64,000 bases of DNA. Source: Podarcis erhardii (taxonomy: Eukaryota). The stretch is taken from assembly GCA_964252035.1 (NCBI GenBank), contig OZ176201.1, one strand, 5' to 3'. The stretch's first letter is position 1; every line of letters begins with the position of its first letter. Made by a program: the position numbers. Below, piece after piece: positions 9,001 to 12,000 of this stretch.

Positions 9001-12000
9001 TTTTGCCACCGGGGGCAAAGTCCCCCATGAGCCGTCGGGTCAGCCCTTCCCCGCCACCCGTTTTGACCTTTTAACTGTATGGTTGCAGCTACGGAAACAG
9101 CCGGGTCACCAGGTGGACCCTTGGGGTTGAGGGCCACCGAATGGATGGTAAGGAACCACGGGGTCCTGGGTGGGTGAACGGACTGCTGTCTGCTTTCTCC
9201 CTCGCTCCCTGTGTTTATTAGACAGCTGCTTCTTTCAAGGAATGTATGGTGAGAAAAGGGCTCTAAAGACAAAGACACACATGGATCTATCTGTGACGCT
9301 GAATGTGGCACAGTAAATTTTTGAGCAGATGGGTTTGTACTCACATGCAGCCCCTACAACAAATCAGCTCTGACTGTCATAGACATATGTAGAAACTATT
9401 TAAATGGTTAGCCTTGGGGGAGTTATTCCTGATGAATTATGTTTCTACTAACTCCAGAATTTATCCCCTTTTATTTCCAGTTAAAGAACCTTGAGCGTTG
9501 AACAAAAGATGCTCAGAGCTGCTGTTTTCTCTCTAAGGGTACCATTTTTGCTTTATGAATTTGCAGCACGTCGTAGTTTGAGCTGAGCTTTCTTGCTGCT
9601 ATTACCATCCTAATTGCTGTTTTAAATGCTTATATGAAGGAAGAATCTGCCAGTTTATTCTAAGTAGTAGATTCAAAGCCTCAAAAATCAAAGGTGTTGG
9701 CATCATAAAGAGTAAGGAGGGTCAATTAGGAGAAATCTAAGGATCAACATGCTCAAGAATGTCTCCTTGCTGACAAGCCATCTAAAGCACATTCTGATAA
9801 CTTTCACCCAGTCCATTGGGCATGATTGTATTTAAATAAAATGTCTAGCCCTCAAGGTTGTGATGAAGTATCAGAAATAGCTGTTTAGATTCTGCTAAAC
9901 ACTAAGGATATGGATGAGTCTTCTGCTGTCATGAAGCAGATTTTCTTGTTTCCTGGAATTCTAACATTTTATCAGTATTCCAAACTCATGGGAATGGCAA
10001 GGGTGAAGAAGGCTCATCATTTGTGGGGTAGGAGGAAAAGGTTAAACTTCCCTCTATATTTTTTTTTAACTGACTGGCTTCCTAATGGTGCATTTAAGTG
10101 TTACATCTAATTTGGCTTTCAGTGACAAATGGCAGGTGAAAACATTTTCCCCTGGAAACCTATGCCTGCTCACTTTGACCACTGGTCTTCTCTAGAGGCC
10201 TTTCTTTCTCCCCCTATTAATATCTGTTGTTACACCTTCTGACCTGGTCACTACAGTCTCAGTTATAGGGTGAGGGGCAGCCTATTGGTGAATAAACTGC
10301 ACCATGCTTTTTCTCAGAAACACTGTCCTGTCACTTATTAGGACCATGTTCACAGATGTCATGGCTGAGCCGAGATGTCATGAGACTTCCTGTTTCAGCC
10401 CCCAATAAAAAATCATTGTGATGTAGTGTTACTGTATTGAACTTTGACTGGGCAGATCCTGGGTTCTAATCCCCACTCAGCTATGAAACCCACTGGGTGC
10501 CCTTGGATCAGTGACTCTTGGCCTAATCTGCTCACAACTTATGTTAGTATAATTGGAGGAAGGGGGATAATAGAATTGTGTATGGTGCCCTGAGCTCCTT
10601 GGAAGAAGAGCGAGATATAAATGTAATAAGAAATAAAAAAATAAATATTTCACATCCTCAAGAGTATCACAACCAAAATGAAATTTGCATAAATATGTCC
10701 CATGGTTGATTCCAATTGCAGGCATTGGTTTACTAGTCATAGGATATTTCTTAGAAGGGTTGAGGGGGTGAGGTTATAGAACCAGATTACCTGTACTTGG
10801 CCTAGAAATTAAGGCCACATGCACACCATACATCCCAACACATATTTAAAGCGCATGACTTTCCCGAAAGAATCATGGGAACTCTGTTTCTCCCCCCCCC
10901 CCAGTACCTTCAACTACATATTCCAGGATTCCTTGGAGGAAGTTATGTGCTTTAACTGTGTGTTGGTTGTTCTTCAAGGGTATGGCATGGATCTGCCCTA
11001 AATCTGCTAGTCTGTATCCCATCCTTTTGCTGACTTGTTTTCTATACTAGAGAGATTACAATGGTGTCTGTTCCTGTATAGCCACTGAAAAAGACAGGAG
11101 AATGCAAGGCAGTGTATTGATAATATCTGGCTGGCCTGTTCTTGCCTATGGCCAAGGCTCTTAGGATGTTTAAGATCCCTCTGAGATAACATACAAGTTA
11201 CGCACCAAAGCCAACACTTGCCCCTCAAGAGACTTGTTAGCCAAATGATGATGCTTTTTCGTTGTTGTTTTGGAAACCTTGTGAGGAGGGAGGCCCCTTG
11301 TGTTGGAGAATATATTGGTTTCCGTCTCCAGTTGCTAGCAGTGCAGGAGCGAGATTAAATTCTAATTTCATATCTAAATTAATGCTGAAAAGACCCAGAG
11401 TGATAAAGTGGTGAAACAAAACCAGTAAAACATTAAATGAGGAACATTGAGGTGGCAATGTTCAGATGCACCAGATCAGTACAAATAAGAATCCCACGCA
11501 GACTGCTTCCCAACAGTCCTGCAAAAAGATGTTTTCCTTGCATTTCTAAAATGTAACCGTGAAAATCATTGCCACACTTCTTCTGGGAACTCATTCCAAA
11601 CCTGCTGGAAAGGTCCTACCCCTTCCAATTGAAGTTTAACTTCTGGAAGATGGGGATTTTTATCTGGGCCCAACCAGAAGTTCCTAATGGGAGGCTAGTG
11701 TATGTGTGTCAGGAACACAGGAAGCTACCTTCCATCAAAGCAGACAATTGGTCAATCTAATTTAGGGATGGAGTCCCTCTGGCCCTCTAGATGTTGGACT
11801 CCATCTTCCATCAGTCCCAGCTGGCATGACCAATGACCAGGGATGATGAGAGTTGTAGCCCATCAACATGGATGGCCACAGGTTCCCATCTCTAGTCTAT
11901 ACTGACTGGGAGCACCTTTCCAGGATTTCAGACAGGTCTTTCTCAACCTACTTGGAGATACTAGAGATTGAGCCTGGAGCCTTCTGCATGTAAAGCAGGG

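What the first reader, a model, noticed from the sequence alone, without database searches (positions are those of the whole stretch)
9079..9153. Candidate short non-myristoylated PKA Calpha isoform (MDVKEFL...) with an overlapping uORF
Seen: ATG GAT G|GTAAGG in a CpG-enriched patch splices in frame to exon 2, giving 338 aa. An out-of-frame ATG at 9079 opens 23 codons that would stop exactly on the first codon (TGA) of exon 2. Established: mammalian sperm Calpha2 uses an intron-1 exon ending ...Asp-Val, short N-terminal variants are reported in other vertebrates, Gly2 myristoylation and Ser10 phosphorylation need exon 1, and Met-Asp is a NatB substrate. Inference: this is the squamate short isoform, possibly testis- or brain-restricted and translationally damped by the uORF.
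Basis: partly seen in the sequence, partly recalled or inferred. Interest (0 to 1): 0.65.

Follow-up and report, generated by a model that had tools for sequence, protein, structure and literature searches.

The report
Candidate short first exon of PRKACA
A two-codon alternative first exon for a reptile-type protein kinase A catalytic-subunit gene fits on sequence grounds but is unproven, and the kind of short isoform it would make was already described in 2017.

Summary
The letters are as described. ATG GAT G|GTAAGG sits at 9141-9153. It joins in phase 1 to exon 2 (23178-23239) of a PKA C-alpha gene whose exons 2-10 run to 35237, and coordinate arithmetic gives 338 codons. The out-of-frame ATG at 9079 opens 23 codons and would stop on the TGA that begins exon 2.

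The pattern alone is not rarer than chance. In simulations, 42% of 23-kb sequences hold at least one equally good site, and four other real sites in this intron score as well or better. 43% of the ATGs in this intron have an overlapping upstream ATG of this kind.

In its favour:
- It lies at the 3' edge of the most GC-rich CpG-enriched patch of the intron.
- Its donor is as strong as the gene's real donors.
- It ends in Asp before the split Val, like human C-alpha-2.

No vertebrate genome or RNA collection was available, so the splice junction and conservation could not be tested. I put about 0.45 on this being the used exon. The uORF claim has no support. Interest is low.

The parts
9141..9147 (+). 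Candidate coding part of a short alternative first exon (exon 1-S type): ATG GAT plus the first base G of a split Val codon
   Evidence: Read directly. The frame was checked (stop, then 22 codons, then Met-Asp). Kozak context is C at -3 and G at +4.
9148..9153 (+). Candidate splice donor GTAAGG
   Evidence: The crude donor matrix gives 5.22 bits. The gene's 8 real donors score 2.81-8.43, and 5 of those 8 are weaker. 6 of 1300 GT sites in 1-23177 score this high.
9079..9147 (+). Out-of-frame upstream ORF of 23 codons. It would end on TGA at 23178-23180 if spliced, or at 9175 if unspliced.
   Evidence: Context is T at -3 and G at +4. It occurs at chance frequency (218 of 503 mock starts).
9072..9074 (+). 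In-frame TAA that closes the main frame upstream of ATG 9141. It also ends the in-frame upstream ATGs at 8874 and 9027.
8800..9299 (.). Weakly CpG-enriched, GC-rich patch, a possible alternative promoter. The candidate donor lies near its 3' edge.
   Evidence: GC 0.54-0.61 and CpG o/e 0.42-0.60, against 0.27 window-wide; only 2 of 456 400-bp windows in 1-23177 reach GC>=0.58 with o/e>=0.5, and they start at 8751 and 8851.
23178..23239 (+). PRKACA exon 2 (62 nt, phase-1 acceptor)
25108..25236 (+). Exon 3 (129 nt)
   Evidence: Its PDB match is to C-alpha residues 36-78, E 4.7e-21.
25335..25433 (+). Exon 4 (99 nt)
27525..27607 (+). Exon 5 (83 nt)
28914..29040 (+). Exon 6 (127 nt)
   Evidence: Pfam Pkinase E 1.3e-11.
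29568..29663 (+). Exon 7 (96 nt)
29810..29932 (+). Exon 8 (123 nt)
32848..33012 (+). Exon 9 (165 nt)
35112..35237 (+). Coding part of exon 10, including the TAG stop
   Evidence: Its PDB match is to C-alpha residues 310-350, E about 1e-19.
16010..16016 (+). Rival candidate mini first exon: ATG GCA G|GTGAGC (Met-Ala, split Val)
   Evidence: Donor 6.97 bits, A at -3 and G at +4, local CpG o/e 0.41. An in-frame ATG lies 7 codons upstream at 15989.
9242..9248 (+). Second in-phase candidate in the same patch: ATG TAT G|GTGAGA (Met-Tyr, split Val)
   Evidence: donor 4.72 bits, G at -3 and T at +4.

Best explanation
The window holds the last 23 kb of intron 1, exons 2-10 of a non-mammalian PRKACA (PKA catalytic subunit alpha) gene, and SAMD1 downstream.

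The most likely single reading is that 9141-9147 is the coding end of a short alternative first exon of the published exon 1-S type. Under that reading, transcription would start in the weakly CpG-enriched patch at about 8800-9140. The donor at 9147|9148 would join to exon 2 at 23178 in phase 1. Translation from ATG 9141 would give Met-Asp, the split Val, then the unchanged kinase core (338 codons).

Such a protein has no N-terminal Gly, so it cannot be myristoylated and its hydrophobic pocket would stay empty. It also lacks the Asn2 deamidation site. Met-Asp should keep its Met and be acetylated by NatB (a recalled rule).

What is shown: the letters, the phase, the donor strength, the gene identity, and the patch. 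What is inferred: that the patch is a promoter, that the junction is used, and any tissue pattern. I see no evidence that the uORF acts as a regulator.
For: - Frame and phase fit exactly.
- The donor scores 5.22 bits, above 5 of the gene's 8 real donors.
- The site lies at the 3' edge of the only stretch of 1-23177 that reaches GC>=0.58 with CpG o/e>=0.5 (2 of 456 windows).
- The other CpG-rich stretch, at 19.1-19.6 kb, reads as an interspersed repeat with an (ATT)n tail (the repeat identity is recalled).
- An in-frame stop 22 codons upstream makes 9141 the first usable ATG of its frame.
- The residue before the split Val is Asp, as in human C-alpha-2 (text of PMC5526564).
[quoted passage not shown] It places these exons upstream of exon 2 and downstream of exons 1-1 and 1-L.
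- Exon 1-1 is absent from the window, so it must lie upstream (0 Met-Gly-Asn hits on the + strand; none of 16 Met-Gly candidates fits). The position is therefore compatible.
- The gene is C-alpha: Gln35, Thr37, Glu64, Gly66, Ser109 and Glu334 are present and no C-beta signature residue is. This was read against PMC3625193. The SAMD1 WH domain lies at 43840 onward.
Against: - The pattern is common. There are 181 short in-phase candidates, and 5 donors score at or above this one.
- At least one such site appears in 127 of 300 simulated sequences.
- A rival at 16010-16016 has a stronger donor and a better Kozak context.
- Kozak context at 9141 is only moderate, with C at -3.
- The patch is not a CpG island by the usual criteria.
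- CpG enrichment in this intron can come from young repeats.
- I could not rule out that the patch is itself a repeat. The within-window self-comparison has little power: only 2.4% of 1-23177 is covered, and even the evident repeat at 19.2-19.6 kb has no second copy.
- The thresholds that isolate the patch were chosen after seeing it.
- No transcript, junction or cross-species evidence could be obtained.
- The real exon 1-S could lie upstream of the window, because exons 1-1 and 1-L are not in it.
Confidence: 0.45

Rival explanations
1. This is a chance decoy. ATGGATG|GTAAGG is an unused match inside intron 1. The real short first exon, if the species has one, is elsewhere: at another site in the window such as 16010-16016, or upstream of the window.
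For: - 42% of simulated 23-kb sequences hold an equal or better site (127 of 300).
- Four other real sites score as well or better. Two of them sit inside a hairpin-like repeat at about 11990-12160, which shows that decoys occur here.
- The site at 16010 has a 6.97-bit donor with A at -3 and G at +4.
- Exons 1-1 and 1-L are not in the window, so an unknown length of intron lies upstream.
- Only two codons are specified, so there is almost no coding signal to weigh.
Against: The site coincides with the most GC- and CpG-rich non-repeat-looking patch of the intron. By the observed density of strong sites (5 per 23 kb), about 0.15 would be expected in a 700-bp patch. The Asp before Val matches human C-alpha-2. 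An exon 1-S is reported for reptiles in this interval.
Confidence: 0.4
2. The patch is a real promoter or first exon, but ATG 9141 is not the start that is used. One version is that the donor at 9248|9249 is used, which gives Met-Tyr before the split Val and turns the 9141 frame into an upstream ORF. Another is that the transcript is non-coding or antisense.
For: A second in-phase ATG plus donor lies 101 nt downstream in the same patch, with a 4.72-bit donor. The 9141 frame, if unspliced, stops at 9219-9221. A pyrimidine-rich acceptor-like site at 8966|8967 (read) would allow the patch to be an internal non-coding exon.
Against: The 9148 donor scores higher than the 9249 donor (5.22 against 4.72). 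ATG 9242 has T at +4. No ORF of the patch on either strand matches a Pfam family (0 families for 4 ORFs at E<=1).
Confidence: 0.1
3. One reading: the ATG at 9079 is a functional upstream ORF that damps translation of the short isoform.
For: The ORF exists. It overlaps the main ATG and, once spliced, ends on TGA at 23178-23180.
Against: - 218 of 503 ATGs in this intron have such an overlapping out-of-frame upstream ATG within 100 nt.
- Its context is weak, with T at -3.
- Ending on that TGA is automatic for any 5' exon read in that frame, because exon 2 begins TG A.
- Whether 9079 is transcribed depends on an unknown start site.
- The words 'uORF' and 'upstream open' do not occur in PMC5526564.
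Confidence: 0.08

Closest known systems
PRKACA exon 1-S / C-alpha-Short of non-mammalian vertebrates (Soberg et al. 2017, PMC5526564)
   Same: It is a short 5' exon of at most 8 codons, here 3 counting the start and the split codon. It lies upstream of exon 2, joins in phase 1, has no N-terminal Gly, and leaves the kinase core unchanged.
   Different: Membership needs transcript evidence; the paper required at least 20 reads, and I have none. The paper's lizard sequence is in a figure that is not held as text, so I could not compare the letters.
Mammalian sperm-specific C-alpha-2 (PRKACA exon 1-2)
   Same: It is a non-myristoylated short N-terminus from an exon inside intron 1, and the residue before the split Val is Asp in human. 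A solved structure exists, listed as a 343-residue chain named 'catalytic subunit alpha 2'.
   Different: The human exon has 8 codons, its Met is thought to be removed, and expression is testis-only. Here there are 3 codons and the Met is probably kept. The paper found no testis-specific exon 1-S outside mammals and could not establish orthology.
PRKACB short exons 1-3 and 1-4 (C-beta-3 and C-beta-4)
   Same: These are very short alternative 5' exons between the long exon and exon 2 of the paralogue, giving non-myristoylated kinases.
   Different: They belong to a different gene, are neural-specific in mammals, and combine with a, b and c cassette exons. The window's gene carries C-alpha signature residues, not C-beta ones.

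Membership tests
PRKACA (PKA catalytic subunit alpha) gene | Nine conserved 3' exons (2-10) with the vertebrate exon-intron structure | tested here: met
   Nine exons with AG/GT at every border, sized 62, 129, 99, 83, 127, 96, 123 and 165 nt plus 123 coding nt. Separate exons match Pkinase and Pkinase_C and C-alpha chains in the PDB.
PRKACA (PKA catalytic subunit alpha) gene | C-alpha signature residues Gln35, Thr37, Glu64, Gly66, His68, Ser109 and Glu334 (PMC3625193) | tested here: inconclusive
   6 of 7 are present. Position 68 is Tyr, not His. Residues were read, with numbering taken and the signature list. The paper's 27 C-alpha sequences included no reptile PRKACA.
PRKACA (PKA catalytic subunit alpha) gene | Absence of the C-beta invariant residues Asp42, Gln67 and Arg319 | tested here: met
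   The window has His42, Asn67 and Lys319. The PDB lists cannot separate alpha from beta: every PKA chain shown was labelled alpha.
PRKACA (PKA catalytic subunit alpha) gene | SAMD1 as downstream neighbour on the same strand (human arrangement, recalled) | tested here: met
   SAMD1_WH (PF21524) at E 5.7e-28 in the ORF starting at 43840 on the + strand, inside a strong CpG island. The human gene order is from memory.
Exon 1-S / C-alpha-Short | No longer than 8 codons, counting the start and the split codon | tested here: met
   3 codons.
Exon 1-S / C-alpha-Short | Phase-1 junction to exon 2 that keeps the frame | tested here: met
   G at 9147 plus TG at 23178-23179 makes the Val codon. The total is 1014 nt, or 338 codons.
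Exon 1-S / C-alpha-Short | Lies between exon 1-1 (or 1-L) and exon 2 | tested here: inconclusive
   It lies 14 kb upstream of exon 2. Neither exon 1-1 nor a credible exon 1-L is in the window, so both are presumed upstream. The order fits but was not observed.
Exon 1-S / C-alpha-Short | No myristoylation site and no pocket-filling residue | tested here: met
   Met-Asp, no Gly at position 2. Criterion.
Exon 1-S / C-alpha-Short | Seen in transcripts spliced to exon 2 | not testable with these tools
   No vertebrate transcriptome or genome collection is available.
Mammalian C-alpha-2 orthologue | Alignable exon and flanks, and testis-only expression | not tested
   No mammalian genomic sequence was used. 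The paper could not align non-mammalian flanks and found no testis-specific exon 1-S outside mammals.
Regulatory uORF | Occurs more often than chance | tested here: not met
   218 of 503 mock starts in the same intron have an equivalent overlapping upstream ATG.
Regulatory uORF | Lies within the mRNA | not testable with these tools
   The transcription start is unknown.

The most novel reading that the evidence does not exclude
The patch at 8800-9140 is a true alternative promoter. It makes the shortest PKA C-alpha N-terminus yet placed on a genome: retained, NatB-acetylated Met-Asp before the split Val. Its translation is gated by an overlapping upstream ORF that can only terminate after splicing, on the TGA formed by the first three bases of exon 2. 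The + strand of this intron carries 5 strong in-phase mini first exons against 0.55 expected, two of them on a repeat. It may therefore offer several alternative N-termini, as PRKACB does.
Probability: 0.07. Interest if true: 0.4.

Novelty: already known. Interest (0 to 1): 0.17.

Why it matters
If the exon is used, it places a reptile C-alpha-Short first exon and its promoter on a genome. It would also add one data point to an open question raised in the 2017 paper: whether the short exons of non-mammals are orthologues of the mammalian sperm exon, since both end in Asp before the split Val. It would not change how PKA is understood, because the isoform class, its lack of myristoylation and its empty hydrophobic pocket are already in print. 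If the exon is not used, this is one of many in-phase ATG-plus-donor decoys in a long intron.

Tried and rejected
- **Exon 1-1 in the window.** There are 0 Met-Gly-Asn hits on the + strand. None of the 16 Met-Gly candidates of 8-25 codons has Asn2, basic residues and a good donor. Rejected.
- **Exon 1-L in the window.** I searched by the paper's hallmarks: a long open frame from Met and a Trp a few codons before a phase-1 GT. This gave 16 rows, none convincing. The best, 4395-4653, has a poor donor (0.84 bits) and no Pfam match.
- **Is the patch a copy of the hairpin-like repeat at about 12 kb, which shares ATG|GTAAGG?** The local alignment score is 24, against a shuffle mean of 19.8, and 9 of 200 shuffles reach it. 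Rejected.
- **Is the patch repeated in the window?** Only the self match, plus two 19-29 nt hits at E 0.78. The whole-window self-comparison covers just 2.4% of 1-23177, so this says little.
- **RNA genes.** 0 Rfam matches in the window at gathering score. 0 tRNA-like genes in 1-23200.
- **Pfam on the open frames of the patch, both strands.** 0 families.
- **PDB lists to separate alpha from beta.** Uninformative, since only alpha-labelled PKA chains appear.
- **Literature on this exon.** The terms 'PRKACA', 'Anolis', 'isoform', 'exon 1' returned 2 papers, both by the same group. The terms 'exon 1-S', 'PRKACA' returned 2 papers. Neither prints the lizard sequence in held text.
- **No structure fold or complex job was run.** None would bear on whether an exon is used.
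Full report
**What is in the sequence.**
- ATG is at 9141-9143, GAT at 9144-9146 and G at 9147, followed by GTAAGG at 9148-9153.
- AG at 23176-23177 precedes an exon that begins TG AAG GAG at 23178 and ends CAG|GTATGA at 23239|23240.
- The G at 9147 plus TG at 23178-23179 makes a Val codon. Exon 2 then reads on as 20 residues beginning Lys-Glu-Phe-Leu.
- The frame of ATG 9141 is closed 22 codons upstream by TAA at 9072-9074.
- The out-of-frame ATG at 9079 opens exactly 23 codons up to 9147. 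After the proposed splice, the next triplet is TGA at 23178-23180.

**Which gene.**
- Short kinase motifs located nine coding exons on the + strand between 23178 and 35237. All have AG and GT borders. Their sizes are 62, 129, 99, 83, 127, 96, 123 and 165 nt, plus 123 coding nt.
- The 338-codon figure is arithmetic only: 1007 + 7 = 1014 nt.
- Exon 3 aligns to residues 36-78 of PKA C-alpha chains in the PDB, and exon 10 to residues 310-350 (E 4.7e-21 and about 1e-19). Single exons match Pkinase and Pkinase_C.
- Those PDB lists show only alpha-labelled PKA chains, so they cannot separate alpha from beta. For that I used the signature residues of PMC3625193 (passages only). Gln35, Thr37, Glu64, Gly66, Ser109 and Glu334 are present, which is 6 of 7. 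Position 68 is Tyr instead of His. None of the C-beta residues Asp42, Gln67 and Arg319 is present.
- A SAMD1 winged-helix domain (PF21524, E 5.7e-28) starts at 43840 on the same strand, inside a strong CpG island. From memory, SAMD1 is the downstream neighbour of PRKACA in human.
- The gene is therefore PRKACA.
- I do not take the window for human. The protein differs from the mammalian chains at several positions, and the interspersed repeats look squamate-like (recalled). No other contig was fetched or compared. The window holds no N.

**Where the other 5' exons are.**
- PMC5526564 states that Gly1 and Asn2 of exon 1-1 are universally conserved, with a fixed length and basic residues at positions 7 and 8 (section 11).
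- The + strand of the window has no Met-Gly-Asn at all. None of the 16 Met-Gly candidates with a phase-1 GT fits.
- A search for the long exon 1-L by the paper's hallmarks gave nothing convincing.
- So the window starts inside intron 1, and both exons are presumed to lie upstream of it. The paper's order is 1-1, 1-L, 1-S, 2. The candidate's position fits that order, but the order was not observed here.

**Is the pattern more than chance?** By itself, no.
- In 1-23177 on the + strand there are 631 ATG-to-phase-1-GT candidates of up to 80 codons, and 181 of up to 7 codons.
- I scored donors with a crude matrix recalled from memory. The candidate scores 5.22 bits. The gene's eight real donors score 2.81-8.43, and five of them are weaker.
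- Six of 1300 GT sites reach 5.22. Five distinct donors combine that strength with a short in-phase ATG: 7031, 9141, 12063, 12083 and 16010.
- The two at about 12 kb lie in a hairpin-like repeat.
- The one at 16010-16016 (Met-Ala) has a stronger donor (6.97) and a better Kozak context, with A at -3 and G at +4 against C at -3 for 9141.
- First-order Markov simulations of the stretch give a mean of 0.55 such sites. 127 of 300 hold at least one, and 0 of 300 hold five.
- The minus strand of the stretch has 0. In the rest of the window (36000-64000) the + strand has 0 and the minus strand has 1.
- So one such site is unremarkable. The excess of five on the sense strand is an unexplained curiosity.

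**The patch.**
- Window-wide CpG o/e is 0.27. In 200-bp windows from 8800 to 9299, GC is 0.54-0.61 and o/e is 0.42-0.60.
- That is enriched about twofold but falls short of the usual island criteria.
- Only 2 of 456 400-bp windows of the intron reach GC>=0.58 with o/e>=0.5, and both abut or cover the candidate. I chose those thresholds after seeing the patch.
- The other CpG-rich stretch, 19.1-19.6 kb, reads as an interspersed repeat with an (ATT)n tail. Young repeats can therefore make such patches here.
- I could not show that the 8800-9299 patch is unique DNA. It has no second copy in the window, but neither does the evident repeat, and self-comparison covers only 2.4% of the intron.
- It is not a copy of the 12-kb repeat (9 of 200 shuffles reach the observed score).
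- It has no Rfam or tRNA-like match and no Pfam match on either strand.
- In its favour, the donor sits where GC and CpG fall back to background. That is the geometry expected of a first exon at the edge of a promoter island (inference).

**The uORF.**
- ATGs occur 2.18 times per 100 nt in this intron. 218 of 503 ATGs taken as mock starts have an overlapping out-of-frame ATG within 100 nt upstream.
- The ATG at 9079 has T at -3.
- Ending on the first triplet of exon 2 is automatic for any 5' exon read in that frame, because exon 2 begins TG A.
- Three further upstream ATGs (8832, 8874, 9027) are in the main frame but are closed by stops.
- Whether any of them is in the mRNA depends on an unknown transcription start.
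- The uORF is real as letters and unsupported as a regulator.

**What is known.**
- PMC5526564 is Soberg et al. 2017. I read the abstract and sections 3 (part 1), 5, 7, 8, 9, 11, 12, 13, 15 and 16. The figures are not held and the supplements are closed.
[quoted passage not shown] These exons lie between exon 1-L and exon 2.
- A lizard and an alligator are among the species listed for its alignment figure.
- It gives the human C-alpha-2 N-terminus as six residues ending Ser-Asp before the split Val.
- It says the defining trait of the class is the lack of anything to fill the myristate pocket.
- It says orthology between mammalian and non-mammalian short exons cannot be decided. [quoted passage not shown]
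- It notes that Ser10 is conserved only in mammals.
- A 2018 review repeats these points (passages only).
- Two searches found no other paper on this exon in lizards.
- The NatB rule for Met-Asp is recalled. A search listing shows papers that hold those terms, but I read none of them.

**Verdict.** The identification of this particular ATG and donor remains open.
- Prior: a reptile exon 1-S exists somewhere between exon 1-L and exon 2.
- For: the coincidence with the patch, the donor strength, and the Asp.
- Against: the abundance of decoys, the rival at 16010, the unknown length of intron upstream, and the untested repeat status of the patch.
- I put about 0.45 on this being the used exon, 0.40 on a decoy, and 0.10 on a real promoter with another start. 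I put under 0.1 on a functional uORF. These are judgements, not computed posteriors.

**What stayed unchecked.**
- Junction usage, the transcription start and conservation. No vertebrate genome or RNA collection was on hand.
- The lizard sequence in Fig 2C and the supplements of PMC5526564, which may already answer the question.

Noticed in passing
window 43840-45120 (+), CpG island about 43300-45200: A SAMD1-like gene starts here. The ORF has a SAMD1_WH domain (PF21524, E 5.7e-28) in an island reaching GC 0.84 and CpG o/e 1.2. A possible SAM-domain exon lies at about 48293-48553, but Pfam found nothing there.
   Followed up: partly
window 60862-63735 (-): A single 957-codon open frame rich in Ser, Pro and Glu, with a nearly exact internal repeat of about 16 residues. 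It has no Pfam family at E<=0.01. It is probably a large exon of a disordered protein of the neighbouring gene, and was not identified.
   Followed up: partly
window 1-23177 (+): Five strong short in-phase ATG-plus-donor sites lie on the sense strand of intron 1. Markov simulations expect 0.55 (0 of 300 reach five), and the antisense strand has 0. Two of the five are carried by one repeat. The excess is unexplained.
   Followed up: partly
window 16010-16016 (+): ATG GCA G|GTGAGC gives Met-Ala before the split Val. It has a 6.97-bit donor and a strong Kozak context (A at -3, G at +4). An in-frame ATG lies 7 codons upstream at 15989. On sequence alone it is an equally good candidate mini first exon.
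   Followed up: partly
window about 11990-12160 (+): A hairpin-like interspersed repeat, with a partial second copy in the window. Its sequence carries two in-phase ATG-plus-donor decoys (12063-12072 and 12083-12095).
   Followed up: partly
window about 19190-19605: A SINE-like repeat with an (ATT)n tail and CpG o/e 0.65-0.86. It shows that CpG-rich patches in this intron can be young repeats rather than promoters. The repeat family is recognised from memory only.
   Followed up: no
window 25204-25206 (exon 3, residue 68): This position is Tyr. The 2013 study reported His68 as invariant in all 27 vertebrate C-alpha sequences it had, none of which was a reptile PRKACA. This is a small exception to a published signature.
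   Followed up: partly
window 4395-4653 (+): An 86-codon frame from Met with a helix-like basic N-terminal stretch and a Trp three codons before a phase-1 GT. These loosely fit the hallmarks the 2017 paper gives for the long exon 1-L. However, the donor is poor (GTCAGA, 0.84 bits), the end is hydrophobic, and there is no Pfam match. It is probably chance.
   Followed up: partly
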